This document shows, one piece after another, positions 4,757 through 61,019 of a stretch of 64,000 nucleotides of DNA. The notes beneath the pieces were generated by a model that had not been told where the DNA came from, searched no databases, and worked only from the letters and a program-made list of their open reading frames with translations. Position 1 is the stretch's first letter, and each line of letters opens with the position of its first letter. Location of the stretch: assembly GCA_000092065.1 (NCBI GenBank), contig CP000582.1; one strand, 5' to 3'. The position numbers and the translations under genes are program-made. The stretch comes from Ostreococcus lucimarinus (taxonomy: Eukaryota).

Positions 4757-6307
4757 CTATTCCCGCTGAAGATAGCTCTTCGCGTTGATGAGCGGGGCAA
4801 GCAGACAAATTCCGACAAACGTGGCGGTGAGAAGCGCAGCGAAAAATGCGTCCCATCCGTACTGTTGCACAAGAAGAGAAAGTGGAACGCCCGCGTTGGC
4901 TGCTCCTAGATATGCAATCCACCCAAGGAATCCCTCACTCGCACCAACGGAGCGACGACCAACAATTTCGGCCCCACACAGTCCTACTAGCATTTGCGGA
5001 CCGTACAGGAAGAACCCAATCATAAAAACTATGAGAGCTTGAGTGACGGGCCAACCAGCAGGAACCATCTTGAATGCAAGTAAAGAAGCCGCAACGCCAA
5101 TAAGATATACCATCACGACTCGAATACGATTACCGACGGCTCCTCTCGTTGATTTCGCAATCAAAGAGTCACTGATCCTTCCAGCTATCAGACTACCAAG
5201 CAAACCACCAAGTTCGAGGCCAGATACTCGGACGGCCGCCGCGCCTGCGTCGATCACACCCTTTTCTTTGATAAGATAAAATACTGACCAAGAAGTGATG
5301 CCCTGACGAACGACATAGACACAAAAGTATGTGAAAGCAAGCCCCCAGATGAAAGGGTTGGAGAGAACATTATGAAGAAGATTGTTCAAAAGGCTCGGTT
5401 GTTTCGAAATGTCGGCAGCATCAGCCTTAAGTCCGCCGGCAATGCTGACGTCTATCTCGACTGGTTCGAAACCTTTATCTTCTGGAGAATCTTTCAGCGT
5501 CGAGACGATGATCACACCAACAACGACAGCTATGCAGCCAGGAGCCCACAGACCCCAGTTCCAACCAAACGTACGAGCAGCAGTTCCAGCTAAGATGGGC
5601 GCCATAAAACCTCCAAGATTATGGGCAATGTTCCACATTCCCCAGTATGTTCCACGCTCGCTAGCAGCGAACCAAGAAGTCAAAATTTTCGCACAGCTTG
5701 GCGCACCGAACCCCTGCAAGATTCCATTCATCGCCCAGAGGACACAAAAGAAAGGAAGTGTCGAGCTCGCACCAAACGCAATATTTACAAGGCCAGTCGC
5801 AATCAAACCTCCGCCAAGCATTAGACTTGGCGATAACATATCACCCACCACACCGCTGACGAACTTACTGCAGCCATAACAAAGTGGAAAGATAGAGGTG
5901 ATAACACCAATAGAAGTTATATCAAGATGTAAAGACGGAGAAGCCACCATAGCTGGAGCAGTGAACGTCAAACTGTTGCGGGTCAAGTAGTAGCACGAGT
6001 AACCGAACAAAATGCTGAAAAACACGGAAAGGCGTGTTCTTAGAAACAGACTGTCGTATGTCCTCTTTGGCTCGGAAGTAGTTGCTGAGAAACCACAAAC
6101 TGTCGACGGACGGTGCAACTTGCTTCGACAATTGCGTATATGCCGCTTCTGGGGCGTAAAGTCACGTCGCACTGCGCATTTAATCCAAGTTACACGCTTC
6201 GGACCTCTCCGAGTTGTTCGAGATCCCACGGGGCTCCCCGGCTGGGCGTTGAGTGTTGTGACGTGTGCCGAGACGAACATTTCTGCTACGAAAGCAAAGC
6301 AAACCAA
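4757..6307 (-). CDS. MFS organophosphate:Pi antiporter (GlpT/UhpC/SLC37 glycerol-3-phosphate or sugar-phosphate transporter family)
   Basis: 516-aa ORF; 12-TM profile; matches to GlpT family e.g. FGYSCYYLTRNSLTFTAPAMV, GMWNIAHNLGGFMAPILAG; N-terminal ~95 aa may be UTR read-through or targeting extension. Confidence 0.75.
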   Translation of the reverse strand: MVCFAFVAEMFVSAHVTTLNAQPGSPVGSRTTRRGPKRVTWIKCAVRRDFTPQKRHIRNCRSKLHRPSTVCGFSATTSEPKRTYDSLFLRTRLSVFFSILFGYSCYYLTRNSLTFTAPAMVASPSLHLDITSIGVITSIFPLCYGCSKFVSGVVGDMLSPSLMLGGGLIATGLVNIAFGASSTLPFFCVLWAMNGILQGFGAPSCAKILTSWFAASERGTYWGMWNIAHNLGGFMAPILAGTAARTFGWNWGLWAPGCIAVVVGVIIVSTLKDSPEDKGFEPVEIDVSIAGGLKADAADISKQPSLLNNLLHNVLSNPFIWGLAFTYFCVYVVRQGITSWSVFYLIKEKGVIDAGAAAVRVSGLELGGLLGSLIAGRISDSLIAKSTRGAVGNRIRVVMVYLIGVAASLLAFKMVPAGWPVTQALIVFMIGFFLYGPQMLVGLCGAEIVGRRSVGASEGFLGWIAYLGAANAGVPLSLLVQQYGWDAFFAALLTATFVGICLLAPLINAKSYLQRE

Positions 6308-10815: not shown

Positions 10816-11580
10816 CTTCGCGATACCTATTGATCTCGAATCTGCGATCAATGGTAATATCGATTAGTAAACCTCAAAATATGTAATAATCAACACTCAC
10901 CTTGAATCCAAATATTCTAGGTTCATACAAGTCAGTTTGTTTTGGGGTCTGCAAGTGCTTGAAGCTCATCAGAAACAAATGCGGAAACGTCGTTCCAAAG
11001 TACGCTCCGTCGGTGTTTCCTTGATATTTACTTCGAGGAAAGTATATATCCTAAAATACGGAGTTGGAAGCAAGAGATGCCAATATGGATGACGTACCTT
11101 GCACTTCGGACAGAATATTTTCACCGTCGCAGTTCGAAAGATATCCGACGTGCCGACCGGTAAGCACGGCGTATTCGCGCACATAAATCTTGGACAACGT
11201 CCAAAGTGGTTCTGTTTGTACTTCTCCAACATCAATGTCATACCTCTTTGGGTCAGTATGTATCGCGCGTGAATTAGACCATAGAGCATTTCTGCCGCCG
11301 ACTCAACAAGCTCCTGCTGCTGTTCGCTCAACGTGCTATGCCCTCTTTCTACATCAAGAATTGTGTCAAGTGCGTAATCATAATATGGAACAGAGGAGCT
11401 GAGGCCGCTCAAGTTGAAATCGTCTTGTATGTATTCTTCGTCAACTTCACAAAATAACTCATTTCCTTTCAATCCGCAAAACCACGCAATCCACGACTGT
11501 TCTGTATCTTCGATCGAATCGTCGAAGGAATCGTCGCCAGACGACGCCGTTTCGTCGCTCAAATACGCAGGTTTTTTCAT
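10816..11580 (-). CDS. CKB: casein kinase II regulatory subunit beta, >=3 exons
   Basis: [79 protein letters not shown]; after a 47-nt intron (gtacgtcatcc...attttag) the protein continues [28 protein letters not shown]...[10 protein letters not shown]; the terminal exon is uncertain. Confidence 0.85.
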
Positions 11581-33089: not shown

Positions 33090-34519
33090 GCAGAATTTGT
33101 CCGCACGACACCGAGTTCTAATACTTATTCTCATACTGCGATCTTACCGGGAGTTCGAGGCGTACATCGCCCTAAATCGTATGGAGACAACTTCTCTGTG
33201 AACAGGAAAGGATATCCAATCTGGCCTTAAGTCTCCTGTAATATTGCAATTTTCATTGTACAAACTAGCTCTGCCGTCGTTCTAATCACTAAATTGAAGT
33301 TCACGCTTGCAGCTTCGTGTAAAAGTCGATTTCACGTTCGTAGGTATTTGCGTATTCGGATTCTCAAAGGTAGGCCCCTTGCCAGAGAGCCCCGTTATCT
33401 CTTGAATATTCGCCCAGTCGCCGCGCGTAAAGTTGTAGGTTTGCATCAAATTCAGGACGTCTGGTATACCATCTAGTTCTTTACCCCCTCGAGCTTGACT
33501 AAAAAGCGGACGAGTGAGCAACCGTTTTGTCAAAGAAGCGTACCAGAGGCAAAACTCAAGTTGAGTGCTGCAGCTCCTACCACTTGATCGAAAATGTTGA
33601 TACAACTCTGATAACAGCCGCTGCGATTTTGACTTTGACGACAACTTCCCCAAGAGACTTGGGAATCGATGAGTGTGGCGTTCAGCCTGACCAAATGTTT
33701 CTCTTGAGCCTCTGACGGCAGAGGTTGGCAGGACACATGAAACTATGTTCGCAGGAGGCATCATGGTCCAGTTTTGTGTCTTGTTTATTGTCGTCGCAAA
33801 CACATCTCCTTCTGCTACACGTGACGATGCCGCAGCAACGTGCACAATTCTTTGCAACTCGTTTGTACTGTCTCGCGGGCGCATACACGCATAGTTTTCT
33901 TGAACGAACAGAGGGATCATGTCTGAGTGCTGGAAAACCAGATTAAGCCTCTCATCGAGTGTTTTTAATGGGCTTGGACGAAAAAGAACATCTATTGCTT
34001 GAAAAACACTTGTGGCGACATCTTTTTTCGAAATTTCATTCCTTCCGTGATGCTTCGAGCTCATGCCCCATAGTTGTAGCTGGTTGATACTGGATCGAAG
34101 GTCATTGTTGTTTGCTTCTATGAGAGCATCAACTGCGTCGCTATCAACATCCAAGCGTTGTGAGGCTACAATTTGATTCAAGTACTTTCGGAGCTGGAGC
34201 TTATTTGGCCGTTGGAAAGGTAAATCGACACAATAGTTTGCAAGAGTCTTTAGTTTTTGTGAATATCGGTCGTTGCAGATGCATATGATGGGAATGCGCG
34301 TGTGTTTGATGACTTCTATCAACTCCGAGATACCACCCCGATCGCCACCAGCCATACCATCTACTTCATCCATGATCAGTGCAGTCTTTGTTGATCGCAA
34401 ACCATCAATACCGATGTTACGATTAGTTACAAACTCTCGAACAGTACTCGCCAATGTTCCCGCTATCCCATCACTTACTGCTCCAGTCTTACCTCTTGAA
34501 TCGCTTGCGTTTACGTTCA
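33090..34519. repeat. segmental duplication copy A (1430 bp, 100% identical to 35382-36811 as far as every ORF reads)
   Basis: six identical ORF translations in both copies (e.g. 33294-33476 = 35586-35768; 33527-33715 = 35819-36007); boundaries read from the sequence: left ...gaag|gcagaatttgtccgcacga, right ...gcgtttacgttca|acgacgtgcac. Confidence 0.9.
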
Positions 34520-35141
34520 ACGACGTGCACACGTCGTCGCCGAACAAATACCCCGCCCCTCGAGGGGAAAGCCCCCAGCCGGAGACGTCCTCGGGGTCGC
34601 TCCAAAGCAAATCGCACATCGCGCCTTCGTGCGGCACCTCTTGTTTACGATCGATCGTTCGAATCTGATCGATCGTCGTGATGCTCGGGGACAACCCCCC
34701 GTGCACGCAAAATATCTTGTTATCTATGAGCGCAGACAACGAAAGGTAATCGAACACATCCGTGCAATATCGCCACACGTTGACGCTCCCGTATTTGCGC
34801 AAACACTCGTCGTAAAACCCGTACACCTGCGTGATCTGTCGACACTCGTGATTCCCCCGAATGAGATACATTCGATCCGGGTACCTCACCTTCAGCGCCA
34901 GGAGCAACAAAAACGTCTCCACGCTGTAAAACCCGCGATCGACGAAGTCCCCCATGAACAAATAGTTTGTATCCGGGCAGTCGCCGCCGACTTTAAACAG
35001 TTCCAACAAATCGTAAAACTGCCCGTGAATGTCCCCGCATATCGTCATCGTTTGCTCGTTAATCCACCGCACGCGATCGAAATCGTCGCTCGAAAAGTCA
35101 CGCAGCGACGCCTTCGCGTCCCGCATCGCCGAACACATCAA
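33282..35141 (-). pseudogene. chimeric in-frame ORF: N- and C-truncated PP4-type Ser/Thr phosphatase catalytic fragment (34520-35141, GC-richer) fused at ...[11 protein letters not shown]... to a P-loop-less copy of the RFC1 C-terminal 411 aa (duplication copy A)
   Basis: the PP4c part ([57 protein letters not shown]...[42 protein letters not shown]...[10 protein letters not shown]) lacks the ~50-aa PP4c N-terminus and everything after the GAGY motif; the RFC1 part starts after the Walker A motif. Confidence 0.5.
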
Positions 35142-35403
35142 TGTTGAGCGAAATATCTAACGCGGTGACGCTGTGCGTGAGCGCACCGCTGGATATGTAC
35201 GTCACGCCTGTTTGGCCGATGGCGTGGACGGTGTCTAGGGTGACGTTACCCGACGCCTCGGTGTCGACTCTGCCGTCGATGAGACGCACGGCGGCGGTCA
35301 TGTCCTCCACGGACATGTTGTCGAGCATTAAACGAGTGACGCTGCCCGTCGGGACGTTCGGGTCGTGCAGAATTTGTTCGTGCAGAATTTGTCCGCACGA
35401 CAC
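35141..35403 (-). pseudogene. 3' fragment of a nicotinate-nucleotide pyrophosphorylase (QPRT/NadC) gene, C-terminal ~90 aa plus stop, no upstream exons
   Basis: [65 protein letters not shown] matches the QPRT C-terminal domain (LDNxSxEEM..AV...GRV.LEASGGITL.T....A.TGVDYIS.GALTHS..ALD.SL); GC-rich codon usage unlike the surrounding genes. Confidence 0.5.
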
Positions 35404-36811
35404 CGAGTTCTAATACTTATTCTCATACTGCGATCTTACCGGGAGTTCGAGGCGTACATCGCCCTAAATCGTATGGAGACAACTTCTCTGTGAACAGGAA
35501 AGGATATCCAATCTGGCCTTAAGTCTCCTGTAATATTGCAATTTTCATTGTACAAACTAGCTCTGCCGTCGTTCTAATCACTAAATTGAAGTTCACGCTT
35601 GCAGCTTCGTGTAAAAGTCGATTTCACGTTCGTAGGTATTTGCGTATTCGGATTCTCAAAGGTAGGCCCCTTGCCAGAGAGCCCCGTTATCTCTTGAATA
35701 TTCGCCCAGTCGCCGCGCGTAAAGTTGTAGGTTTGCATCAAATTCAGGACGTCTGGTATACCATCTAGTTCTTTACCCCCTCGAGCTTGACTAAAAAGCG
35801 GACGAGTGAGCAACCGTTTTGTCAAAGAAGCGTACCAGAGGCAAAACTCAAGTTGAGTGCTGCAGCTCCTACCACTTGATCGAAAATGTTGATACAACTC
35901 TGATAACAGCCGCTGCGATTTTGACTTTGACGACAACTTCCCCAAGAGACTTGGGAATCGATGAGTGTGGCGTTCAGCCTGACCAAATGTTTCTCTTGAG
36001 CCTCTGACGGCAGAGGTTGGCAGGACACATGAAACTATGTTCGCAGGAGGCATCATGGTCCAGTTTTGTGTCTTGTTTATTGTCGTCGCAAACACATCTC
36101 CTTCTGCTACACGTGACGATGCCGCAGCAACGTGCACAATTCTTTGCAACTCGTTTGTACTGTCTCGCGGGCGCATACACGCATAGTTTTCTTGAACGAA
36201 CAGAGGGATCATGTCTGAGTGCTGGAAAACCAGATTAAGCCTCTCATCGAGTGTTTTTAATGGGCTTGGACGAAAAAGAACATCTATTGCTTGAAAAACA
36301 CTTGTGGCGACATCTTTTTTCGAAATTTCATTCCTTCCGTGATGCTTCGAGCTCATGCCCCATAGTTGTAGCTGGTTGATACTGGATCGAAGGTCATTGT
36401 TGTTTGCTTCTATGAGAGCATCAACTGCGTCGCTATCAACATCCAAGCGTTGTGAGGCTACAATTTGATTCAAGTACTTTCGGAGCTGGAGCTTATTTGG
36501 CCGTTGGAAAGGTAAATCGACACAATAGTTTGCAAGAGTCTTTAGTTTTTGTGAATATCGGTCGTTGCAGATGCATATGATGGGAATGCGCGTGTGTTTG
36601 ATGACTTCTATCAACTCCGAGATACCACCCCGATCGCCACCAGCCATACCATCTACTTCATCCATGATCAGTGCAGTCTTTGTTGATCGCAAACCATCAA
36701 TACCGATGTTACGATTAGTTACAAACTCTCGAACAGTACTCGCCAATGTTCCCGCTATCCCATCACTTACTGCTCCAGTCTTACCTCTTGAATCGCTTGC
36801 GTTTACGTTCA
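35382..36811. repeat. segmental duplication copy B (source copy, embedded in the RFC1 gene)
   Basis: see copy A; a 15-bp microduplication tcgtgcagaatttgt tcgtgcagaatttgt sits exactly at its left junction (35364-35393). Confidence 0.9.
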
Positions 36812-37070
36812 TCGTTTGAAATCCAAGTTCTCGGCAAATAAGGATGGCACTCGTGGTCTTGCCAATTCCAGGCGCTCCACTTATGAGTATTGCTTTTCGG
36901 GTCGACACTTTTGAAGCTTTTCCTGTGGCTTGATTCCCTGGCCAGTTTGAGAGCCAAGTTCGGAGAGTAGCGATGGCGCTACTATTTCCGACCAAGTCTG
37001 CGAGTACTCTCGGAGAAAATTTGTCAGTCCACAAATTTGCAGAATTTTCTATACCATAGTAGGCATGCAT
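35574..37070 (-). CDS. RFC1: replication factor C large subunit (RFC1), AAA+ module to C-terminus only; N-terminal/BRCT region absent
   Basis: LWTDKFSPR...[37 protein letters not shown]...[17 protein letters not shown]...[15 protein letters not shown]..., C-terminal ...[25 protein letters not shown]...[22 protein letters not shown]; an in-frame stop lies 21 codons upstream of the first Met and no BRCT-encoding exon fits before the GC-rich block. Confidence 0.8.
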   Translation of the reverse strand: MHAYYGIENSANLWTDKFSPRVLADLVGNSSAIATLRTWLSNWPGNQATGKASKVSTRKAILISGAPGIGKTTSAILICRELGFQTMNVNASDSRGKTGAVSDGIAGTLASTVREFVTNRNIGIDGLRSTKTALIMDEVDGMAGGDRGGISELIEVIKHTRIPIICICNDRYSQKLKTLANYCVDLPFQRPNKLQLRKYLNQIVASQRLDVDSDAVDALIEANNNDLRSSINQLQLWGMSSKHHGRNEISKKDVATSVFQAIDVLFRPSPLKTLDERLNLVFQHSDMIPLFVQENYACMRPRDSTNELQRIVHVAAASSRVAEGDVFATTINKTQNWTMMPPANIVSCVLPTSAVRGSRETFGQAERHTHRFPSLLGKLSSKSKSQRLLSELYQHFRSSGRSCSTQLEFCLWYASLTKRLLTRPLFSQARGGKELDGIPDVLNLMQTYNFTRGDWANIQEITGLSGKGPTFENPNTQIPTNVKSTFTRSCKRELQFSD

Positions 37071-37079
37071 AGAAGTCCT

Positions 37080-37260
37080 CGCCAGTTTGCTGGCGGGATA
37101 CTCCTCGAAGCCAACTCTCTTCCTGCTGCTCAGTGGCTCCTATTCAAACTTGTCAAGGCAGTGCGTTTGTGCTTACTTATTATCGTACCATGATGCGCAC
37201 AGTCTTTGTGTCTACGATTCAGTCCAGTGGCGATGCGTATAGCGTTTTCACACCGCGAAC
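37080..37260. other. compositional and architectural junction between the low-GC intron-rich compartment and the high-GC intron-poor compartment
   Basis: abrupt switch to gcgcgc-rich sequence at ~37205; gene structure, codon GC3 and intron density differ on the two sides. Confidence 0.8.
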
Positions 37261-37350
37261 TGCGCCGCTCGACGCGACGCCGCGGCGCCCCTCCGCCGCG
37301 CGTCGAGTCTAAATTTTCACGCCTCTGTACATGGGCTCAAAACGCCCACA

Positions 37351-38238
37351 ATGCGCACATTTACGACCGCGCGACACCGCCGCGCGACCCCGCGCGCGCC
37401 CGCGTCCGCGCGCGCGCGCGCGCGCCCGCGCCGTCCGCGCCGTCCGCGACGCCGATCGATGTCGACCTCGACCGCGACCGCGACGACGACGACGACGGCG
37501 ACGCCGTCGCGCGCGCGCGCGCGCGGACGCGGCGCCGTCGCGCGCGCGTCGTCGTCGTCGTCCGCGTCGTCGTCCGCGCGCGCGCGCGACGCGGACGACG
37601 CGCGGCGCGCGCGCGCGCGCGGGCGCGTGCACGTCATCTGCGGACCGATGTTCGCGGGCAAGACGACGCACCTGATGCGATGCGTCGAGCGCGAGCGCGC
37701 GCGCGGACGGACGGTGTTCGTGATCAAATCCGAGCTCGACGTCGAGCGGTTCGGCGAGGACGCGCGCGACGCGCTGATCGCGCACGACGGGAAGCGCGTG
37801 CGGTTCGACGCGAGCGACGACGGCGGAAGGGTGCGCGCGGTGCGGACGCTGGACGCGGCGGGACTGGGCGCGGACGCGGCGGCGTGCGACGCGGCGGACG
37901 TCGTCGCGGTGGACGAGGCGCAATTCATGGGAGACTTGGCGCCGTTCGCGCGACGGTGCGCGGAGGAGCTGGGACAGACGGTGTACGTGTGCGGGTTGGA
38001 CGGGGATTACAGGCGGGAGAGGTTCGGGGGGGTGTTGGATTTGATTCCGCTGTGCGACACGGTGACGCGATTGAGAGGGACGTGCGCGGAGTGCGGAGAC
38101 GAGAGTTTATTCAGTCGACGCGTCGAGGCGAGCGAGGACGTGGTGCGCGTGGGAGGGAGGGATAAGTACGCGCCCGTGTGTCGAGCGTGTTACGTCGCGG
38201 CGTCGACGCGGGAGAGAGGGTCGGCGTCGGCGCGGTGA
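37351..38238 (+). CDS. TK1: thymidine kinase (TK1 type) with a long Ala/Arg/Ser-rich N-terminal extension (true start uncertain)
   Basis: VICGPMFAGKTTHLMRCVERE (P-loop), VVAVDEAQFM, VYVCGLDGDYRRERFG, zinc-ribbon CAECGDESLFSRR...YAPVCRACY. Confidence 0.75.
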   Translation: MRTFTTARHRRATPRAPASARARARPRRPRRPRRRSMSTSTATATTTTTATPSRARARGRGAVARASSSSSASSSARARDADDARRARARGRVHVICGPMFAGKTTHLMRCVERERARGRTVFVIKSELDVERFGEDARDALIAHDGKRVRFDASDDGGRVRAVRTLDAAGLGADAAACDAADVVAVDEAQFMGDLAPFARRCAEELGQTVYVCGLDGDYRRERFGGVLDLIPLCDTVTRLRGTCAECGDESLFSRRVEASEDVVRVGGRDKYAPVCRACYVAASTRERGSASAR

Positions 38239-38338: not shown

Positions 38339-41300
38339 CTAAAATTTTAATCGTTTCTTCGACGCCGGTTTCGCCGCCTTTTGCGCGGAGTTGACGGCGC
38401 GCTTTTTCGACGTCGTCACGCCCGCGGAGCGCAAGCCCGGCAGCGAGGCGTCTTCGTCGTTTTCGTCCTGGTCGTCGTCTTCGTCTTCCTCTTCGTCGTC
38501 GTCGTCGTCCACCACGACGGCTGCGCGACGTCGACGTCGGCTCGCTGGAGTCCCCGGAGTCGCCTCGGCGTCGGCGTCGGCGTCGGCCTGCGTCTTCGTC
38601 GCGCGCTTCCGGCCTCGCTTCGTCGCCGTTTCTTTGAACATGTCTTCGGCGAAATCGCTCGCGTCGCGAGTCATGAGATCGCGGAACGTGTCGACCGCGC
38701 GCCGAGCCGAGCCGTAGGATTGTCCAGCGGTTGCGTCGACAATACCGGTCTCAAATTTCACGGTATCGTCGAATTTCACGACTTCTGCGTTTCTCGTCGC
38801 CTCCGTGGGGACGTACGACGCCACGCGAGCGTCGGACAACTCGTACGCCTTCTTGACGTGAGATTTGAGCAACAAAACGACGCTCAGCGCACACGCGAGT
38901 TCGACGTCGCTCTTGAATTCGTTATCTGGCACCGCATCGTCCGCCTTGGCCGCCGACGCTTCCACGCCCTTCGTGAGCTGTTCGAGCAACAAGCCGCCCT
39001 TGAGCGATATGACGCGATTGAGCTGAAAGACGACGTAGAGAGTCTCATCCACTGATGTGAACGGAAGCTCGGTGACGACGCTCGCTAGGAATCGCAAGAA
39101 TAGCGCATCGGACGATCCGCTCGTGGTTTCAAACCGACGCAAAAGAGTGTTCAAGAACGCGTTTCGGGACGTTCTAGACGAGTTCACCAAGCTGTAGACA
39201 AACGCGAAACCGTCCGAGGCGTCGGCGATTTTCTTTTGCCCGCTTTCGCTTCTTCTAGCCGCCGTTTCCAGACGCTTCTTGAAAGAGTACGCAAGCTCGA
39301 CGCCGTGAGTGAGCTGATGCTCAAAAAAGTCACCGTGTCGTTGAACTTGCGCCTTCAGGAGCTTACGCGCGAGACGCTTAACGCTCGGCACTGGGTCGAT
39401 TTGTAGCGCGATGAGCGTGGGGAACGCGCTTGCCGGGTGAACCAAGCCTTGACGAAGGACCACCTCGACTAAATGCAAGCCTTTCAACCGCACGCTGTAC
39501 GCGGAGTCGACGCAAAGCGCTAAAACATCTGTCCAATATCGTTGCGCGATACCGCCGGCGATAGAACGATCACTCTGGCCGTTGACGACTTGCAATTTTT
39601 CCGCGTCTCGCGAGCGCTTTTGCGCCGACTTGAGCACCGAAGCCTTAGTGGAAGCGTTGACTTCATTGGCCGCCGCCGATCCACTCGTCGCAGTCATACG
39701 AAATTCTTCCTCTCGAATGAGCTCGCTGAGATTCGTCAGCGCCTGCTCCTTCAAGCCACGCTCGGCGCTGGATGCCAACGCGGCTCGCATGATGGAATCA
39801 AAGCTTCCTTTGCCGAAACCGCCGTCGCGATTAAACATGAGTTCTGGTCGAGCGACGAACAAGTCTCCGCACGCCCCGAGCGCTCCACGAGTGAGATCGT
39901 ACTCTTCTGCAGGCTGAGACTCCAGGGTCTTGCGGAAGACTCGAAGAAGATCCTGAATCGAGATATCGCATTCACCATTTTCGACGGCCGCGTCCACGAC
40001 GTCGGCTCCAAATCGCGCAATATTACCCAATACGTACAGCGAACGCGCGCAGTGCGATTTGTTCTGAACGCTCAACGCTTCATCACTAGATATGGATTCG
40101 ATGACGATGGCAACGAATCGTTTCAGCATAGACATCGTTCCACTATCCTTACCGCCGCGAGTCTCCGCCACGGCGCACAACGTCTTACACGCGTAATAAA
40201 TGACAGCTTTGTCGTGATGGCGGAGTAAGAGGATGCGCAAGTCTCGTTCGATCTCTTTCGCAATCGGCGCTGGAAGACGACCAGCGTGTTTCGCAACAAT
40301 ATGCACGACGGACATGCAGCACTGGAGCTTCTCACCGACGAAAGGCGCGTCGTCGTCGACCCGCTTCAGATACGGCTGGAGCGCCACGGCGAAATACGAT
40401 GGGTCGCGTTTCGGAAGGCAGAGACACGGATCGACGACGGTCAGAATGTGGAGACCGAGTGCGTACTTGACGCTCATCGGCACCGACTTCGACGTGCCCG
40501 GCTCGTCTTTCACGACCACGCCATTGTGTGCTCCGTTCGATTTGACTCGTTCACCGTTTGGCGCGCGACTTTGCTCGTCGGATTCGCTCTCGATGAGCGC
40601 GTGCAACACCTGCACCGATAAACGCTTCGCTACCTTTCGCATACCGCGAACATTGACCCATGCATCAACCTTCTCGTCTTCGCTCGGATACAGCACCGCG
40701 CTGATGATCGCAACGACCGGAAACGTGGGAAGTAAAGGAAGCTTTTGTTTGCCGCTTCGGGAAACGAGTCGGTAGACGCCCCAAGCGACGGAGACCATTT
40801 GCCGCGCGCGAATCGCGATTGGATCATTATCCTCGATACCATCATGCCCAACGGTGGCTAAGTGCGCCGTAGATGCGTCTTCGTCATCACTGCCATTGTT
40901 TCCGTCCCCATCATCTTCGTCGTCATCGTGTTCATCGTCGGCTTCGTCTTCCAATGCAACCGGTGAAAACCAAAGCTCGCGAAAAATCTTCACAACGTGC
41001 GAACGGATCGTTTCTTCTTCATCCAGTATGCGAAACGCCAACACTTGCATCGCCTTATCCGCTTTAGTAAAGTCAGGATTACGCAGGCATTCTTGCAGGG
41101 TGGAAACCACGCGCTTGCGCACAGATACACCGACGTCGGATACGCGGTCTTCAATCAAGTCGTAGTACTTTTCGGCAAGACTGACGTTTCGCACCATCTG
41201 TCTGCCGATGACATCCACCACGGCGGCTCGCACGGACGATCCCGTATCTTTCAATCGGATTTTCAGCGCGCGAACGATATCCGGAGACTCTAACAGTTTC

Positions 41301-43762
41301 GGGTCTTCGTTCACGATACCACCGATTGCTCTTGTCGCTGATGTGCGCACCAAGACGCTCGCGTCATCGAGCATAGCCGTCACGCGCTGCACGAGCACGT
41401 CGAGCTGTCTTGCCAACGGTCGTCGAGCGTTGAGTTGAAGACACAAAGACTTGGCGAGCTCGCGCGGAAGTCCAGCCAGCGAGCCATTTGTAGCCTTTTT
41501 CGCAGTGTCCGCGACTCGCACCATGCTAGCGTGCAGAGCTGCGTACATCGCCCGCGAACCGCCAGCGACGACTTCTTGACGAAAACCGACGCCCGCGCGC
41601 TCAGCGTCCCGCGCAAACTGACACAAATGGTACGATACTGCGGAAGTGTTGAGCGTCACACGCGAATGAGACGCCGTATCGTCCGACATCCTCGCGCCTT
41701 CACGCGGTGCTGCGCCATTTTCGTCGTCTTCATCCGCGTCGTCGTCGCGAGTAAACGTCGTTGAAGACGGGCCTCGATTGTTCTCTGCCAAATAGCGCGC
41801 GATAATCGATTCCATCGCAAAAATATCCGCACTCGCCTCGTCGGCCTGCACCAACGCACTTTCCGTTTGCGCGTCGACTCGAGTTCGAACGCGCGCTGCG
41901 TCTTGATGAGCAAACATGACCGCTTTTTCGTGCAGCGTCTCGGCGTTTGACGTAAATTCTAAATCCTCCGCGCGTGGCAACTCGCGCCAGAACGCATCCT
42001 CCTCTACTGCTTTCGAGTCAGCGCGAAGTTTTGATGCGATTTGACCAAGGAAATCGAGCGCAATCTCGCGAATCTTGGAGTCTTTGCACTGCAGACCGGC
42101 AGACCCGAGCAGGTTCCCGGCGAGATTGAGCACAAGCAAGTTTGCCACGGGCCATTCGGGAAGGTTTCTGCATGTGAGCGCGTCCACGAGAGCGTTGTGG
42201 ATCACCGCGCGTATCTGACGCTCGTGTTCCGCCGCTTTCACCTTCGGCCACCTCGTCAGCAAATCTTTCCAAAAGTAGTTCGTCCAGTAAAACGCCGATC
42301 CAAACGCACGCGCGTGCACGTCTGTCGTCATTTCACCTTCTTTATCCGCCTTGGGCATTGTCGCTTCGTCGTCGGAAAATTCCACCGTGGCTTGGAAACA
42401 CTGCATCAACAGAGCGAGCAAGACTTGGATTTGCACTGAGTCTTCGCCTGGGACGTTAAAACATCGCACGCTACGCCCCTCAGTCGGAAGTTTCATGAGA
42501 GACGACAGAATATTGTCCACGACGAAGCCTCTGTGCTCAGAGTATTGCGTAAAAATGCTCGACACGAGTTCGACGGACTTGAGTTGCACAAAGCTCACGT
42601 CCTCAATTTCGAACGCCGAGAACGCCAAAGACGTCAGCTGCAGTACCGTCGCATCTGGAAGTGCGAGGAGGGAAATCAAATTGGCCAAGTGCGTGAAAAT
42701 GACGCCTATTTTCGCCCCCAACATTTTTGCTACCTTGTATCCCCCGCTGCCTGATTTCTTCGACGATGAGGGCGGCGGCGGCGCCGAGACGCCCTTACTC
42801 TTGCTGGCCGGTGTCTTCTTTTTCCCATCTTGCTCGACGTCATCTCCGTCTTCGTCACTGCCGCGATGAACGTTCCACATGCCGGCATCGTAAAAGACGA
42901 AGACATTCCGCACCAAGTGTTGCCTCGCGCACTCGATCATCTCGTCGATGCCTTCCTCGCGATAAATCTCCTTCGGCATGTCCGTCGCCGCCAATATGAC
43001 AAAGTACGCCCCGATAGCTTCCAACGATTTCAACACACGCTGTGCGTCGGCACCTCTGTACTGCGCGTTCGCGGCGATCAACGTTTCGTTCGCGCTCTTT
43101 GCGACTCGCTCCAACATTGACAGCGTCTTGACTAAATCTCGTTTCCCGACGCCCTTCAACAACCCGCGTTCTCGCAACAATTCACATCTCGAGCTAAAGT
43201 CGCGAAGTTCGCTCAGCATCACGGCGCCAGATGCGTCGTCCATGTCGTCGCCAGCGCTCGCGTCTTCATCATCCAATTCAATCCTGTCGCACAAATCTTC
43301 CGCCGCGCGCACAAAGTCTGCCACCAGCGCCTCGCCGTCTATCGACGTCACCAACTCCGTCGTCGTCATGACACTCTGCGGCGCCGCGATCGCACGCGCG
43401 ACTTCTTTACCCCTCGATCGCCCGACGTCATCCTCTCCATCCTCCATCGCGTCCGCGCTACCCTGAATCATCCCCGTCGACGCGTTCGTCGCCGCCGCGG
43501 GCAGCGTCGCGTTCGCTCGAACCGTCACGCACGCCTCGTCTCCCATCGCCTCCACGATCTTCGCCGTCATCGGGCAGTGCACCGCGTCTGTTTTCGCATA
43601 TTTTCGTTTCGCTCGCATCAGCGTCGTCGACCTATCGCATCGTCGTTTCGCGCGTCGTCCGTCCGTCAGTCGCTCGCTCGCTCGCTCGCTCGCTCGCCTC
43701 GCCTCGCCAATCGCATCCGTCCCCCTTCCGTCATCGCGCGCGCCTCGCTTCGCTCGACGCAC
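38339..43762 (-). CDS. SCC2: sister-chromatid cohesion protein 2 / Nipped-B-like cohesin loader, intronless ~1750-1800 aa (true start probably an internal Met at ~43570-43620)
   Basis: HEAT-repeat block SVRTSATRAIGGIVNEDPKLLESPDIVRALKIRLKDTGSSVRAAVVDVIGRQMV...VGVSVRKRVVSTLQECL...VKIFRELWF characteristic of SCC2/NIPBL; acidic and basic C-terminal tail; contains (GGCGTC)n and (GTC)n coding repeats. Confidence 0.65.
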   Translation of the reverse strand: MRRAKRGARDDGRGTDAIGEARRASERASERLTDGRRAKRRCDRSTTLMRAKRKYAKTDAVHCPMTAKIVEAMGDEACVTVRANATLPAAATNASTGMIQGSADAMEDGEDDVGRSRGKEVARAIAAPQSVMTTTELVTSIDGEALVADFVRAAEDLCDRIELDDEDASAGDDMDDASGAVMLSELRDFSSRCELLRERGLLKGVGKRDLVKTLSMLERVAKSANETLIAANAQYRGADAQRVLKSLEAIGAYFVILAATDMPKEIYREEGIDEMIECARQHLVRNVFVFYDAGMWNVHRGSDEDGDDVEQDGKKKTPASKSKGVSAPPPPSSSKKSGSGGYKVAKMLGAKIGVIFTHLANLISLLALPDATVLQLTSLAFSAFEIEDVSFVQLKSVELVSSIFTQYSEHRGFVVDNILSSLMKLPTEGRSVRCFNVPGEDSVQIQVLLALLMQCFQATVEFSDDEATMPKADKEGEMTTDVHARAFGSAFYWTNYFWKDLLTRWPKVKAAEHERQIRAVIHNALVDALTCRNLPEWPVANLLVLNLAGNLLGSAGLQCKDSKIREIALDFLGQIASKLRADSKAVEEDAFWRELPRAEDLEFTSNAETLHEKAVMFAHQDAARVRTRVDAQTESALVQADEASADIFAMESIIARYLAENNRGPSSTTFTRDDDADEDDENGAAPREGARMSDDTASHSRVTLNTSAVSYHLCQFARDAERAGVGFRQEVVAGGSRAMYAALHASMVRVADTAKKATNGSLAGLPRELAKSLCLQLNARRPLARQLDVLVQRVTAMLDDASVLVRTSATRAIGGIVNEDPKLLESPDIVRALKIRLKDTGSSVRAAVVDVIGRQMVRNVSLAEKYYDLIEDRVSDVGVSVRKRVVSTLQECLRNPDFTKADKAMQVLAFRILDEEETIRSHVVKIFRELWFSPVALEDEADDEHDDDEDDGDGNNGSDDEDASTAHLATVGHDGIEDNDPIAIRARQMVSVAWGVYRLVSRSGKQKLPLLPTFPVVAIISAVLYPSEDEKVDAWVNVRGMRKVAKRLSVQVLHALIESESDEQSRAPNGERVKSNGAHNGVVVKDEPGTSKSVPMSVKYALGLHILTVVDPCLCLPKRDPSYFAVALQPYLKRVDDDAPFVGEKLQCCMSVVHIVAKHAGRLPAPIAKEIERDLRILLLRHHDKAVIYYACKTLCAVAETRGGKDSGTMSMLKRFVAIVIESISSDEALSVQNKSHCARSLYVLGNIARFGADVVDAAVENGECDISIQDLLRVFRKTLESQPAEEYDLTRGALGACGDLFVARPELMFNRDGGFGKGSFDSIMRAALASSAERGLKEQALTNLSELIREEEFRMTATSGSAAANEVNASTKASVLKSAQKRSRDAEKLQVVNGQSDRSIAGGIAQRYWTDVLALCVDSAYSVRLKGLHLVEVVLRQGLVHPASAFPTLIALQIDPVPSVKRLARKLLKAQVQRHGDFFEHQLTHGVELAYSFKKRLETAARRSESGQKKIADASDGFAFVYSLVNSSRTSRNAFLNTLLRRFETTSGSSDALFLRFLASVVTELPFTSVDETLYVVFQLNRVISLKGGLLLEQLTKGVEASAAKADDAVPDNEFKSDVELACALSVVLLLKSHVKKAYELSDARVASYVPTEATRNAEVVKFDDTVKFETGIVDATAGQSYGSARRAVDTFRDLMTRDASDFAEDMFKETATKRGRKRATKTQADADADAEATPGTPASRRRRRAAVVVDDDDDEEEDEDDDQDENDEDASLPGLRSAGVTTSKKRAVNSAQKAAKPASKKRLKF
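38567..38594. repeat. (GGCGTC)n hexanucleotide repeat inside the SCC2 CDS (encodes DADADADA on the minus strand)
   Basis: ggcgtcggcgtcggcgtcggcgtcggcc seen directly. Confidence 0.85.
43660..43707. repeat. (TCGC)n microsatellite in the SCC2 5' region
   Basis: gtcgctcgctcgctcgctcgctcgctcgcctcgcctcgcc seen directly. Confidence 0.85.
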
Positions 43763-59170: not shown

Positions 59171-60829
59171 ATGGCGGCGCAGGCGAGGGCGTTGGAGTCC
59201 CAGGTGTGGCGCGAGCGGGACGAGGAACAGGACGACGACAAAGCATCGACGGCCGACGACCGGCGCGCGCAGGAAGAGGAGATGTCGATTCTCGTGAGTA
59301 TTTTCTGCGACTGCGCGAGAGGCGACGACGCGAACGCCGTGAGGGAGGCTTTGGCTTCGGGACGCGACGTCGGCGACGCGACTTCGAGCGGGCGGTTGTT
59401 TCGCGCAGAACTGGAGATCGACGTCGAGATCGACGGCGAAGCAGAGGTCTTGAACGGAGATTCCACGCATCTTGTTGCTGCTTTACCGCCGATATTTCTG
59501 GAATTCATCTTCCCGAGAAGGTATCCCTCGCGCGAGGCGCCGAAGTTCGTCATTCGTAGTGATTGGTTGTCGAACAGCCATTTGAGCGCGATGTGCGCGA
59601 GATTGGACGCCATATGGGAAGACCAGCGTCCAAACGGTGAGCCAATAGTGTATGAATGGACTCAATGGATAAAGAACGACGCGATGCGAGACGTATTGTT
59701 GAATGCGCAGGGCGCGCTCGACGTCTCAGCTCGAGGTCTTGGGTGGGCGGACGGCGAGTTTGAAGTCGACGCGAGAGCCGTCGTTACGGCTCGAGACGCG
59801 AATGAGGCGGTGTTTACGATTTTACGTGCAGACGCACATGCTAGACGACGAGCATTTCTGATCAGCTGCGATAATTCGTGCTCAATGTGCCTCGCGGATG
59901 ACATCAAAGGCGTCGACGTTCGACGAGTGTCGAGCGCCTGCGCGCACACGTATTGCGTCGAGTGCGTGACGCGCATGGCGCGCGTGCACGTGAGCGAAGG
60001 CTCTGTCTTACGCTTGGTCTGCCCGGAATGTTCGTGTGCGTTCGATCCTCATGTGCTGCGCGCCATTCTGAACCATGATGAGTATGAAAAGTATGAAGCC
60101 ACGCTGCTCGCGCGCACGCTCGACTCGATGGCGGATCTCGTGTACTGCCCTCGATGCGAGCATCCCGTTATTGAAGAAGAAGATCAAAATTTTGGGCGAT
60201 GTCCCGGTTGCTTCTTCGCTTTCTGCACGCTTTGCCGCGCGTCGTGGCACGCTGGGTCCGAGTGCCTCAACGCTGAGCAAAAGCTCGCGGTGCTCGAGGC
60301 GAGACGTCGCGGTGACTCGAAAATGTCCGAAGAAGCGTTGCGTCAGTACAAAGAACAAATCGCCGACGTATCCGCGGCCGCATACGTCGAACGGAACGGC
60401 CGCAAGTGCCCAGTGTGTGGTCAAGGGGTTGAGAAAAACGAAGGCTGCAACAAGATGACGTGCGCGTGCGGCGCCTACTTTTGTTGGAAGTGCGGTCAAA
60501 AGCTTGAAGGCGACGGGTATTCTCATTACCGAAACGTCAACGGCGAACCCGGCACGAGCACGTGTCAACTCTTCGACCTCGACGCCATCGAAGCGTGGGA
60601 GCGCGATATGGCCGCGCTTCGCGTCGACGGTCGCGCGCCTCGCGCGCCGAGAGCCGCCGACGTCATCTCCTGCATCCGCTGCAAGGCCCAAAACGTCGCC
60701 TTCGATCGAAACAACCACGTTCGATGTTGGGCCTGCAACTCTTCTTTTTGCGCCGCGTGCAGGCGCGTCGTTCTGAAGACGTCCGAGCACTACGCGCCGA
60801 GCGCCCCGTGCAAGCAGCACCGAAAGTGA
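59171..60829 (+). CDS. RBR-type E3 ubiquitin ligase with N-terminal RWD domain (RNF14/ARA54-like)
   Basis: RWD region ...FLEFIFPRRYPSREAPKFVIRSDWL...; RING1 CSMCLADDIKGVDVRRVSSACAHTYCVECV...CPEC; IBR YCPRCEHPVIEEE...CPGCFFAFCTLCRASWHAGSEC; RING2 CPVCGQGVEKNEGCNKMTCACGAYFCWKCG. Confidence 0.75.
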   Translation: MAAQARALESQVWRERDEEQDDDKASTADDRRAQEEEMSILVSIFCDCARGDDANAVREALASGRDVGDATSSGRLFRAELEIDVEIDGEAEVLNGDSTHLVAALPPIFLEFIFPRRYPSREAPKFVIRSDWLSNSHLSAMCARLDAIWEDQRPNGEPIVYEWTQWIKNDAMRDVLLNAQGALDVSARGLGWADGEFEVDARAVVTARDANEAVFTILRADAHARRRAFLISCDNSCSMCLADDIKGVDVRRVSSACAHTYCVECVTRMARVHVSEGSVLRLVCPECSCAFDPHVLRAILNHDEYEKYEATLLARTLDSMADLVYCPRCEHPVIEEEDQNFGRCPGCFFAFCTLCRASWHAGSECLNAEQKLAVLEARRRGDSKMSEEALRQYKEQIADVSAAAYVERNGRKCPVCGQGVEKNEGCNKMTCACGAYFCWKCGQKLEGDGYSHYRNVNGEPGTSTCQLFDLDAIEAWERDMAALRVDGRAPRAPRAADVISCIRCKAQNVAFDRNNHVRCWACNSSFCAACRRVVLKTSEHYAPSAPCKQHRK

Positions 60830-61019
60830 AGCGAAAGCTTGAAAACTGAACGAAAGCTCTCACAGCGCCCTCGCGTTCCCGCACTCGCGCGCGCTCGATG
60901 TGATGGGCGCCGAGCGCCCCGTGCAAGCAGCACCGAAAGTGAAGCCAAAGCTTGAAAACTGAACGAAAGCTCTCACAGCGCCCTCGCGTTCTCGCACTCG
61001 CGCGCGCTCGATGTGATGG
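60795..61019. repeat. 2 x ~112-bp tandem duplication (2 mismatches) spanning the E3-ligase stop codon, the whole intergenic spacer and the first bases of ureF
   Basis: cgccgagcgccccgtgcaagcagcaccgaaagtgaagc[g/c]aaagcttgaaaactgaacgaaagctctcacagcgccctcgcgttc[c/t]cgcactcgcgcgcgctcgatgtgatgg occurs twice back to back. Confidence 0.85.

What the first reader, a model, noticed from the sequence alone, without database searches (positions are those of the whole stretch)
35574..37260. RFC1 truncated exactly at the compositional junction
The only RFC1 in the window begins at the AAA+ module (LWTDKFSPR...). An in-frame stop sits 21 codons upstream of its first Met. The ~180 bp beyond it runs straight into the GC-rich block, which is occupied by thymidine kinase on the other strand. 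The N-terminal 300-400 aa of canonical RFC1, including the BRCT domain, therefore has nowhere to be encoded. Either this organism uses an N-truncated RFC1 (the yeast N-terminal deletion is viable), or the A/B junction is a rearrangement breakpoint that cut the gene, or it is an assembly chimera. The partial RFC1 duplication 2 kb away shows this locus is rearrangement-prone.
Basis: partly seen in the sequence, partly recalled or inferred. Interest (0 to 1): 0.6.

Follow-up and report, generated by a model that had tools for sequence, protein, structure and literature searches.

The report
Naturally short RFC1 at mating-locus edge
The "truncated" RFC1 is a complete, expressed clamp-loader gene that lacks the BRCT domain in all Ostreococcus and Bathycoccus relatives examined, and the GC jump beside it is the real, already described edge of the alga's candidate mating-type region, not a break that cut the gene.

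Summary
The window matches Ostreococcus lucimarinus chromosome 2. The RFC1 ORF is 100% identical to XP_001416472.1.

**Observation.** It largely holds: the ORF starts at the AAA+ module, the GC jump lies about 184 nt upstream, and TK is on the other strand. Two corrections:
- The in-frame stop is 24 codons upstream, not 21.
- That stop lies inside a 49-nt GT..AG intron (37188-37140).

**Gene structure.** A spliced contig shows the real start is ATG 37191-37189. The protein is 522 aa, with an N-terminal basic tail shared with orthologues.

**BRCT loss.** No BRCT domain is present. RFC1 of O. tauri, the O. mediterraneus cluster and Bathycoccus also lacks it, while Micromonas RFC1 keeps it. The loss is therefore lineage-wide and unrelated to this junction.

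**The junction.**
- At least seven independent metagenome contigs cross it in the window's arrangement, which rules out an assembly chimera.
- Ten other contigs are 99.7-99.9% identical from 37254 onward but carry a different low-GC sequence to the left.
- 37253|37254 is therefore the boundary of a two-haplotype region. This is the published candidate mating-type (BOC1) locus.

**The duplication.** The "partial RFC1 duplication" is an exact 1430-bp repeat around an 862-bp patchwork of PP2A and QPRTase fragments. It is absent from all ten wild contigs.

**Verdict.** Mostly known biology, and a modest new variant.

The parts
35574..37139 (-). RFC1 exon 2. It holds codons 2-522 and the stop codon (35576-35574). 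It contains the AAA+ module, the lid and the RFC1 C-terminal (collar/A') domain.
   Evidence: ORF and Pfam. 100% identical to XP_001416472.1 from the internal Met onward. The 23 codons upstream of that Met are open and present in spliced contig L013.
37140..37188 (-). 49-nt GT..AG intron, about 39% GC, of the small AT-rich type typical of the BOC1 low-GC region.
   Evidence: L013 nt 254-1833 match window 37140->35561 and nt 229-255 match 37214->37188, both at 100%; the overlap comes from ambiguous G residues. BOC1 intron properties: PMC3491373.
37189..37214 (-). RFC1 exon 1. It holds the start codon ATG (37191-37189) and at least 23 nt of 5' UTR.
   Evidence: In L013 this is the first in-frame ATG after an in-frame stop. 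In the genome a TGA lies 8 codons upstream.
37253..37254 (.). Exact boundary between the low-GC, two-haplotype region (candidate mating-type locus, BOC1) and the shared GC-rich part of chromosome 2.
   Evidence: Ten contigs (L019-L028) match 37254->44.2 kb at 99.7-99.86% and are unrelated to the left of it. Window-type contigs L003 and L004 end at 37254 and 37253.
37459..38238 (+). Thymidine kinase, transcribed divergently from RFC1. An upstream ATG at 37351 would give 295 aa instead of 259 aa.
   Evidence: Pfam PF00265. An identical 259-aa product is called on 20 contigs.
35382..36811 (-). Repeat copy R within the intact RFC1 gene. It covers the coding sequence from about codon 111 of the 522-aa protein, plus 192 nt downstream of the stop.
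   Evidence: Exact 1430-bp self-match.
34520..35381 (-). Patchwork insert M (56% GC). 34520-35047 is an internal piece of the PP2A catalytic-subunit gene. 35048-35381 is the 3' end of a quinolinate phosphoribosyltransferase gene plus about 50 nt.
   Evidence: Pfam Metallophos and QRPTase_C. The PP2A part is 100% identical over 529 nt to an intact PP2A gene on GC-rich contigs L029-L031. Microhomologies at both junctions. GC values.
33090..34519 (-). Second copy of R. It gives an in-frame PP2A-RFC1 fusion ORF (33282-35141, 619 aa) that lacks the RFC1 Walker A motif.
   Evidence: All ten wild contigs L001-L010 carry a single R and no M.

Best explanation
This is the complete, native RFC1 gene of Ostreococcus lucimarinus. 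RFC1 is the large subunit of the PCNA clamp loader.

**Gene structure.** It has two exons. A mini-exon ends with the ATG at 37191-37189, followed by a 49-nt intron and then 37139-35574. The product is 522 aa.

**Protein.** It consists of a short basic N-terminal tail, the AAA+ ATPase module, the lid and the RFC1-specific C-terminal domain. The BRCT-containing N-terminal region and the C-terminal tail of canonical RFC1 are absent by descent. The same short architecture is found throughout Ostreococcus and in Bathycoccus, whereas Micromonas keeps BRCT.

**Inferred function.** It assembles with RFC2-5 and loads PCNA at 3' primer-template junctions, as the engineered deltaN forms of yeast and human RFC1 do. 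It would lack the BRCT contribution to the second, 5'-DNA-binding site that helps loading at small gaps.

**The junction.** The compositional junction does not truncate the gene. It lies 62 nt upstream of the start codon. It is the exact edge of the low-GC BOC1 / candidate mating-type region of chromosome 2. The window carries the CCE9901-type (MT-) haplotype. A second haplotype with different gene order, and acetyl-CoA synthetase as its first gene, joins the same GC-rich flank at the same nucleotide in wild populations.

**Shown:** gene structure, domain content, lineage distribution, reality and position of the boundary.
**Inferred:** biochemical function, and assignment of the two haplotypes to MT- and MT+.
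For: **Identity**
- 498/498 identity to XP_001416472.1 of O. lucimarinus CCE9901.

**Gene structure**
- L013 lacks exactly the 49-nt GT..AG segment and reads ...RIM-EPLSSRKRVGFEEYPASKLARTS-MHAYYG, with an in-frame stop upstream of that ATG.
- The recovered tail carries the [KR]KR...K[YL]AR motif seen in the tails of P0002-P0005.

**Domains**
- The 522-aa protein has AAA, AAA_lid_RFC1 and PF08519, and no BRCT at E<=0.1.
- BRCT is detected in Micromonas P0299 and in P0016 in the same run, and not in O. tauri P0002, Bathycoccus P0023, P0033 or P0020.
- N-terminal length before box II is 0-64 aa in the short proteins, apart from one 125-aa model (P0010, whose 524-aa sibling P0009 has 41). It is 105-299 aa in the long RFC1s; the lowest values come from models that start inside or downstream of the BRCT region (P0012, P0018).

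**Core equivalence**
- phmmer aligns residues 33-519 to human RFC1 deltaN (6VVO_A residues 30-518, E 2e-79) and residues 31-513 to yeast Rfc1 291-773.
- Ctf18 and ATAD5 score only about 1e-15 to 1e-18.

**No second RFC1**
- Searches with the window protein and with M. pusilla RFC1 found no BRCT-bearing RFC1 named Ostreococcus or Bathycoccus in their best 120 hits.

**Junction is real**
- L001, L002 and L005 span NUDIX-BAH-Nipped-B-TK-RFC1 at 99.7-99.9% identity.
- L006, L007, L009 and L010 cross the junction by 120-230 nt.

**Two haplotypes**
- L019-L028 share 37254 onward but carry ACS, CK2-beta and TFIIB in 43-51% GC DNA to the left.
- Their ACS is 65% identical in protein to the window's ACS at 7511-9469.

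**Context**
- O. tauri RFC1 sits on chr 2 in 44-50% GC DNA. Bathycoccus RFC1 sits in 33-44% GC DNA on a 646-kb chromosome.
- Literature: GC drops define the mating-type boundaries, CCE9901 is MT-, and both types co-occur in Tara samples (PMC8557840, PMC7016971).
Against: - The intron rests on a single contig (L013). Its first 228 nt match nothing available, so it could be a chimeric assembly or a processed copy rather than a clean transcript.
- Absence of a BRCT-bearing RFC1 elsewhere in the genome was tested only through protein databases of annotated or called genes, not by scanning the whole O. lucimarinus genome.
- AAA_lid_RFC1 scores 32.3 bits, below Pfam's 34.9 cut-off.
- In the NJ tree Bathycoccus groups with the BRCT-bearing Micromonas clade (98%), not with Ostreococcus. 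BRCT loss may therefore have happened twice, or the tree suffers from long-branch effects.
- No biochemical data exist for any short RFC1.
Confidence: 0.85

Rival explanations
1. The junction is a rearrangement breakpoint that removed the 5' third of a once full-length RFC1, leaving a truncated gene that is still used.
For: The gene start lies only 62 nt from a true structural boundary where two haplotypes diverge. The region is known for shuffled gene order (PMC3491373).
Against: O. tauri RFC1 is not next to such a boundary. It has PSF2 upstream and low-GC DNA on both sides, yet it is equally BRCT-less. So are Bathycoccus and more than 15 other lineages. The N-terminal tail is homologous among orthologues, so the present 5' end predates the divergence of these Ostreococcus lineages.
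Confidence: 0.03
2. The junction is an assembly chimera that joins low-GC and GC-rich DNA from different places.
For: Sharp GC step. Several contigs (L003, L004) end exactly there.
Against: Seven contigs from separate metagenome assemblies cross the junction with the same sequence. Contigs end there because the assembly graph forks between two natural haplotypes.
Confidence: 0.01
3. A full-length BRCT-bearing RFC1 exists elsewhere in the genome. This copy is then a redundant or silent paralogue, or an alternative RFC-like large subunit.
For: Ostreococcus-type short RFC1s fall into two deep clades, which could be read as paralogues. The whole genome was not scanned.
Against: No Ostreococcus- or Bathycoccus-named BRCT RFC1 appears among the best 120 hits of two searches, although chlorophyte and plant RFC1s at 39-48% identity are listed. 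The gene is 100% conserved, intron included, in ten wild contigs. A spliced product exists. PF08519 and the PDB ranking place it with RFC1, not with Ctf18, Elg1 or Rad17. The two clades fit the published pattern of mating-type gametologues that predate speciation (PMC8557840).
Confidence: 0.06
4. Upstream coding exons, possibly including BRCT, are spliced on from a distant or trans location. The non-matching first 228 nt of L013 would hint at this.
For: L013 diverges from the genome right after a possible AG acceptor at about 37213, and its 5' part is not in the 64-kb window.
Against: In L013 the RFC1 frame has a stop codon about 30 codons upstream of the ATG, and only a GTG-initiated 18-codon extension was called. 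Transcriptome-derived complete ORFs of related short RFC1s (P0154, P0205, P0333) are 518-530 aa and lack BRCT.
Confidence: 0.03

Closest known systems
Canonical eukaryotic RFC1 (yeast Rfc1, 861 aa; human RFC1, 1148 aa; Micromonas pusilla XP_003060942, 949 aa)
   Same: It has the AAA+ module with Walker A (GAPGIGKT) and Walker B (IMDEVDG), the RFC1 lid, and the RFC1-specific C-terminal domain PF08519. It aligns collinearly with yeast residues 291-773.
   Different: It lacks the N-terminal region of about 250-550 aa that contains the BRCT domain. It also lacks the C-terminal tail of about 80-90 aa. Only a 36-aa tail precedes box II.
Engineered N-terminally deleted RFC1 used for structures (yeast Rfc1 core in 1SXJ_A, 516 aa; human RFC1 deltaN in 6VVO_A, 595 aa)
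   Same: The boundaries are almost identical: residues 33-519 align with 6VVO_A 30-518. From established knowledge, not tested here, such deltaN forms assemble with Rfc2-5 and load PCNA, and yeast tolerates the N-terminal deletion.
   Different: This form is natural, fixed in a lineage and the only RFC1 detected. The engineered forms are laboratory constructs of proteins that normally carry BRCT.
Second (5') DNA-binding site of RFC formed by the Rfc1 BRCT and AAA+ modules (eLife 2022, PMC9293004 and PMC9293009)
   Same: The AAA+ and collar parts of Rfc1 that contribute to that site are present.
   Different: The BRCT half of the site is missing. Loading at nicks and small gaps would have to work without it or by another route. 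This was not tested.
BOC1 low-GC region / candidate mating-type locus of Mamiellales (Moreau 2012, PMC3491373; Blanc-Mathieu 2017, PMC5498103; Benites 2021, PMC8557840; Leconte 2020, PMC7016971)
   Same: It shows a sharp GC drop on the big outlier chromosome, small AT-rich introns, housekeeping genes and scrambled gene order. Two highly diverged haplotypes co-occur in the sea. CCE9901 carries one of them (for the literature; for the data here).
   Different: Nothing differs in kind. The additions here are the nucleotide-exact boundary (37253|37254), the first gene of each haplotype (RFC1 versus acetyl-CoA synthetase), and the fact that both start codons lie 43-62 nt from the boundary.
Alternative clamp-loader large subunits (Ctf18, Elg1/ATAD5, Rad17/Rad24)
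   Same: They share an AAA+ module of the RFC family and lack a BRCT domain.
   Different: They lack PF08519 and score far lower (E about 1e-15 to 1e-18, against 2e-79 for RFC1). The window protein is RFC1 proper.

Membership tests
RFC1 (large subunit of replication factor C) | AAA+ ATPase module with Walker A and Walker B motifs | tested here: met
   PF00004 at residues 85-194 of the 522-aa protein, E 1e-10. GAPGIGKT and IMDEVDG align with human and yeast RFC1.
RFC1 (large subunit of replication factor C) | RFC1-specific C-terminal domain (PF08519) | tested here: met
   Residues 345-515, 140 bits against a cut-off of 23.
RFC1 (large subunit of replication factor C) | RFC1-type AAA lid (PF25361) | tested here: inconclusive
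   32.3 bits, below the 34.9 gathering score, but at the expected position (219-267) and aligned in the PDB comparison.
RFC1 (large subunit of replication factor C) | Closer to RFC1 than to Ctf18, Elg1/ATAD5, Rad17 or the small subunits | tested here: met
   PDB phmmer: RFC1 2e-79 and 2e-63; Ctf18 9e-18; ATAD5 2e-15; Rfc3 and Rfc4 about 1e-12.
RFC1 (large subunit of replication factor C) | N-terminal BRCT domain (present in most but not all eukaryotic RFC1) | tested here: not met
   No BRCT at E<=0.1 in the protein or in upstream minus-strand ORFs. The domain is detected in Micromonas controls in the same run.
RFC1 (large subunit of replication factor C) | Forms a pentamer with RFC2-5 and loads PCNA | not testable with these tools
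   Inferred from homology to the crystallised and cryo-EM cores only.
BOC1 / candidate mating-type locus of Mamiellales | Contiguous low-GC block on the big outlier chromosome with a sharp boundary | tested here: met
   44-50% GC for 1-37 kb against 54-78% beyond. RFC1 GC3 is 0.43, against 0.89 for TK.
BOC1 / candidate mating-type locus of Mamiellales | Two highly diverged haplotypes that share the flanking sequence | tested here: met
   L019-L028 compared with the window and L001-L010 give an identical flank from 37254. ACS gametologues are 65% identical in protein and 69% in DNA. CK2-beta is inverted.
BOC1 / candidate mating-type locus of Mamiellales | Small AT-rich introns | tested here: met
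   One 49-nt intron of about 39% GC in RFC1.
BOC1 / candidate mating-type locus of Mamiellales | RFC1 exists as a pair of gametologues (MT- and MT+) within O. lucimarinus | tested here: inconclusive
   There are two deep BRCT-less Ostreococcus clades. One holds CCE9901 and O. tauri RCC4221 (both MT- in PMC8557840). The other holds the O. mediterraneus cluster. No contig physically links any candidate to the alternative haplotype.
Template-switch (MMBIR/FoSTeS-like) duplication with templated insertions (for the R-M-R structure) | Direct duplication whose junction holds short pieces copied from other loci, joined at microhomologies | tested here: met
   The two R copies are 100% identical. The PP2A piece is 100% identical to the intact gene elsewhere. 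An 11-15-nt ACAAATTCTGC(ACGA) repeat lies at R|M, and 1 nt of microhomology at M|R.
Template-switch (MMBIR/FoSTeS-like) duplication with templated insertions (for the R-M-R structure) | Presence confirmed in independent sequence data | tested here: not met
   It is absent from ten wild contigs. The M->R junction is absent from JGI metagenome contigs. The fusion ORF is not on record. Reads of strain CCE9901 were not available.

The most novel reading that the evidence does not exclude
RFC1 was captured in the non-recombining mating-type region in the ancestor of Ostreococcus and Bathycoccus, and lost its BRCT region and C-terminal tail there. It now evolves as a pair of very old gametologues, so cells of opposite mating type in one species would replicate their DNA with clamp-loader large subunits only about 42-60% identical. 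These algae would then be a natural 'RFC1 deltaN' lineage for asking what the BRCT/5'-DNA site is needed for.
Probability: 0.35. Interest if true: 0.5.

Novelty: new variant of a known kind. Interest (0 to 1): 0.35.

Why it matters
For genome scanning, the case shows how a tiny intron and a lineage-wide domain loss can look like a truncation at a compositional break. Both the break and the gene are genuine.

For replication biology, Ostreococcus and Bathycoccus appear to rely on an RFC1 that equals the minimal crystallised core. This is a natural test of how dispensable the BRCT/5'-DNA-binding region is. I found no paper that discusses it.

For Mamiellales genomics, the metagenome contigs fix one edge of the O. 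lucimarinus candidate mating-type locus to a single nucleotide. They also show that both haplotypes place a divergently transcribed gene 43-62 nt from it.

The reference gene model (498 aa) probably starts 24 codons too late.

Tried and rejected
- **BRCT-only protein search.** It returned only short fragments and bacterial LigA BRCTs and gave no taxonomic anchor. It was uninformative on whether Ostreococcus has a stand-alone BRCT protein.
- **Linking an RFC1 candidate to the alternative haplotype.**
  - Loci around P0004, P0033 and P0205 share nothing with L019-L028 or the window apart from RFC1 itself.
  - No supplementary tables of Benites 2021 are held, so I could not see whether RFC1 is one of their listed gene families.
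- **Fusion ORF look-ups.** The 618-aa and 614-aa forms are not on record. This is weak evidence, because the look-up needs an exact product.
- **First tree attempt.** The BLOSUM-distance bootstrap tree timed out. It was replaced by a Kimura-corrected NJ tree with 100 bootstraps. That tree is adequate for clades but not for the deep Bathycoccus/Micromonas/Ostreococcus order.
- **Giant-virus origin of the short RFC1s.** Considered and rejected. They sit on long algal contigs among housekeeping genes.
- **Read-through or antisense coding under TK.** Considered and rejected. The long minus-strand ORFs there are GC-rich artefacts with no family match.
- **Not done.** No structure prediction was run, because the sequence match to solved RFC1 cores was already unambiguous.
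Full report
**1. What is at the coordinates**

ORF 35574-37070 (-) encodes 498 aa. Pfam finds an AAA module, an RFC1-type lid and the RFC1 C-terminal domain PF08519 (E 7e-41), and no BRCT.

GC content is 44-50% from 1 to 37 kb and 54-78% beyond. In 100-nt steps it rises from 0.48 (37100-37199) to 0.65 (37200-37299) and 0.82 (37400-37499).

Neighbouring genes:
- Thymidine kinase lies on the + strand at 37351/37459-38238.
- A Nipped-B/SCC2 cohesin-loader gene follows on the - strand at 38339-43762.

The protein is identical to XP_001416472.1 of Ostreococcus lucimarinus CCE9901, which lies on an 895-kb contig, chromosome 2. The window is therefore almost certainly the reference chromosome 2, the 'big outlier chromosome'.

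**2. The gene is longer than the ORF**

Translation upstream of the Met at 37070 gives 23 open codons (EPLSSRKRVGFEEYPASKLARTS) and then a TAG. This stop is the 24th codon upstream, not the 21st.

One member of the same 90% protein cluster, P0134, is 540 aa. Its contig L013 (1833 nt, from a Logan assembly of run SRR17264770) shows:
- It matches window 37140->35561 and 37214->37188 at 100%.
- It skips exactly 49 nt that begin with GT and end with AG.

Removing that intron joins ATG 37191-37189 to the 23 codons. In L013 this is the first in-frame ATG after an in-frame stop. The protein is therefore 522 aa.

The recovered tail carries a basic [KR]KR...K[YL]AR motif. The same motif occurs in the N-terminal tails of O. 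tauri P0002 and of P0003-P0005. That argues it is coding.

Small AT-rich introns are a published hallmark of this low-GC region (PMC3491373).

All ten wild contigs are 100% identical over the 1619-nt gene, intron included.

*Caveat.* The first 228 nt of L013 match nothing in the window or in any fetched locus. They remain unexplained.

**3. Lack of BRCT is a lineage trait**

The closest homologues are 475-608 aa and lack BRCT:
- O. tauri P0002: 553 aa, 64% identity.
- P0003-P0010.
- The O. mediterraneus cluster P0020/P0333: 518 aa.
- Bathycoccus prasinos P0023/P0092.
- Many uncultured relatives.

Transcriptome-derived 'complete' ORFs in these clusters (P0154, P0205, P0333) are 518-530 aa.

Length before RFC box II (LWxDK) separates the two kinds:

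| Kind | Residues before box II |
|---|---|
| Short proteins | 0-64, apart from one 125-aa model (P0010; its 524-aa sibling P0009 has 41) |
| Long (canonical-length) RFC1s | 105-299; the lowest values come from models that start inside or downstream of the BRCT region (P0012, P0018) |

The short proteins also lack the C-terminal tail of about 90 aa.

The BRCT-bearing relatives at 43-47% identity are Micromonas. Their clusters contain M. pusilla XP_003060942 (949 aa) and M. commoda XP_002502824 (917 aa). A single Pfam run finds BRCT in these and none in the window protein, O. tauri, Bathycoccus, P0033 or P0020.

A search with the M. pusilla protein lists Micromonas relatives, then other green algae and plants at 39-48% identity. 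No BRCT-bearing RFC1 named Ostreococcus or Bathycoccus appears. The first search gave the same result.

Against solved structures, residues 33-519 align with the human RFC1 deltaN construct (6VVO_A 30-518, E 2e-79). Residues 31-513 align with yeast Rfc1 291-773. Ctf18 and ATAD5 score about 1e-15 to 1e-18.

The alga's RFC1 is thus a natural equivalent of the minimal core used for structural work. The BRCT domain forms half of the second, 5'-DNA site of RFC (PMC9293004, PMC9293009). Loading at small gaps would have to do without it.

**4. The junction is real and is a haplotype boundary**

Window-type contigs:
- L001, L002 and L005 come from three separate metagenome assemblies. They carry NUDIX-BAH-Nipped-B-TK-RFC1 and match the window at 99.7-99.9% across the junction.
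- L006, L007, L009 and L010 cross the junction by 120-230 nt.

A look-up of the exact TK protein returned ten further contigs, L019-L028:
- They match the window from 37254 to about 44.2 kb at 99.7-99.86%.
- To the left they carry a different sequence of 43-51% GC, encoding acetyl-CoA synthetase, CK2-beta and a TFIIB-like protein.
- The alignment switches from noise to identity at CGCGAACTGCGCC, which is window 37254.

Two large window-type contigs (360 kb and 63 kb) end at 37254 and 37253. That is expected where an assembly graph forks.

The ACS of the alternative haplotype is 65% identical in protein to the window's ACS at 7511-9469. CK2-beta matches at 73% in inverted orientation.

This is the published picture of the candidate mating-type locus (PMC8557840, PMC7016971, PMC3491373):
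- Its boundaries are defined by the GC drop.
- It has two ancient haplotypes with scrambled gene order.
- CCE9901 is MT-.
- Both types co-occur in Tara samples.

The new details here are the single-nucleotide boundary and the layout beside it. RFC1 (ATG 62 nt away) and ACS (ATG 43 nt away) are the first genes of the two haplotypes. Both are transcribed away from the shared TK side.

RFC1 also lies in the low-GC outlier region in other genera:
- O. tauri: chr 2, about 123 kb, 44-50% GC, with different neighbours.
- Bathycoccus: 33-44% GC on a 646-kb chromosome.

The short gene therefore cannot be a product of this particular junction.

**5. Phylogeny**

An NJ tree was built from 470 columns with 100 bootstraps.
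- One BRCT-less clade (100%) holds the window protein, O. tauri RCC4221 and P0003-P0010.
- It is sister (81%) to a second BRCT-less clade (100%) that holds the O. mediterraneus cluster and P0033/P0205.
- Bathycoccus groups with BRCT-bearing Micromonas (98%).

The two Ostreococcus clades fit the reported trans-specific MT-/MT+ split. I could not physically link any candidate to the alternative O. lucimarinus haplotype. The deep order is not reliable with this method.

**6. The 'partial duplication'**

33090-34519 and 35382-36811 are 100% identical over 1430 bp. They flank an 862-bp segment M of 56% GC.

M is a patchwork:
- 34520-35047 is 100% identical to an internal part of an intact PP2A catalytic-subunit gene on GC-rich contigs.
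- 35048-35381 is the last ~95 codons of a quinolinate phosphoribosyltransferase gene plus about 50 nt.

The junctions show microhomology: ACAAATTCTGC(ACGA) occurs twice at R|M.

The result is an in-frame PP2A-RFC1 ORF of 619 aa. It lacks the RFC1 P-loop and is probably non-functional.

Evidence on whether the structure exists elsewhere:
- All ten wild contigs have one R and no M.
- The M->R junction is absent from JGI metagenome contigs.
- The fusion product is not on record.

The pattern fits a recent template-switch duplication with templated insertions in the sequenced strain. An artefact cannot be excluded without the reads.

**7. Verdict**

The gene is complete. Its short form is ancestral to Ostreococcus (and also found in Bathycoccus). 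The compositional junction is the known edge of the mating-type/BOC1 region.

Novelty is modest and consists of four points:
- a natural BRCT-less RFC1 lineage;
- a corrected start codon with a mini-exon;
- a nucleotide-exact haplotype boundary;
- a curious patchwork duplication.

Noticed in passing
window 33090-36811: An exact 1430-bp direct repeat flanks an 862-bp patchwork made of a PP2A internal fragment and a QPRTase 3' end, with microhomology at the junctions. This creates an in-frame 619-aa PP2A-RFC1 fusion ORF (33282-35141). The whole 2292-bp extra is absent from ten wild contigs of the same haplotype.
   Followed up: yes
L019-L028 nt 1-5796, compared with window 1-37253: An alternative low-GC haplotype joins the same GC-rich flank at window 37254. 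Its first genes are acetyl-CoA synthetase, CK2-beta and a TFIIB-like protein. Its ACS is 65% identical in protein to window 7511-9469, and CK2-beta matches window 11213-11493 in inverted orientation.
   Followed up: yes
L013 nt 1-228: The 5' part of the spliced RFC1 contig (42% GC, T-rich) matches nothing in the window or in any fetched locus. It diverges just after a possible AG acceptor at window ~37213. It could be a distant or trans exon, a chimeric assembly, or the flank of a processed copy.
   Followed up: partly
P0125 (JGI contig of 1886 nt); window ~37230-37259 (+) joined to ~36830 (-): A called protein reads MRIAFSHREL, from the + strand across the haplotype boundary, and is fused to RFC1 from about residue 81. 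This implies an inverted junction at a GAACT microhomology, possibly an amplification chimera.
   Followed up: no
L014-L018 and L037-L043: Contigs carrying other short RFC1 types also break close upstream of the gene: 250-460 nt for the P0004 type and about 1.6-1.8 kb for the P0205 type, including 186-kb and 79-kb contigs. This suggests forks or repeats near RFC1 in those haplotypes too.
   Followed up: partly
window 37385-37640: (CG)n-rich imperfect direct and inverted repeats (arms of 30-53 nt, 70-81% complementary) lie inside the Arg/Ala-rich N-terminal extension of thymidine kinase. Gene callers disagree on the TK start (222, 259 or 295 aa).
   Followed up: no
window 60794-61019: A 113-nt tandem duplication at 98% identity lies in the GC-rich part.
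   Followed up: no
window 38339-43762: The Nipped-B/SCC2 ORF is 1807 aa here. It is called as 1889/1890 aa, or as 1759 aa plus a small ORF, on wild contigs. This points to start or indel polymorphism, or to an intron near its 5' end.
   Followed up: no
L033 (Bathycoccus, OZ117206.1 325-346 kb) and L011 (O. tauri chr 2, 113-135 kb): RFC1 lies inside the low-GC outlier region in Bathycoccus (33-44% GC) and in O. tauri (44-50% GC). Micromonas RFC1 keeps BRCT and has a GC-rich amino-acid make-up. BRCT loss thus coincides with residence in the low-GC region.
   Followed up: partly
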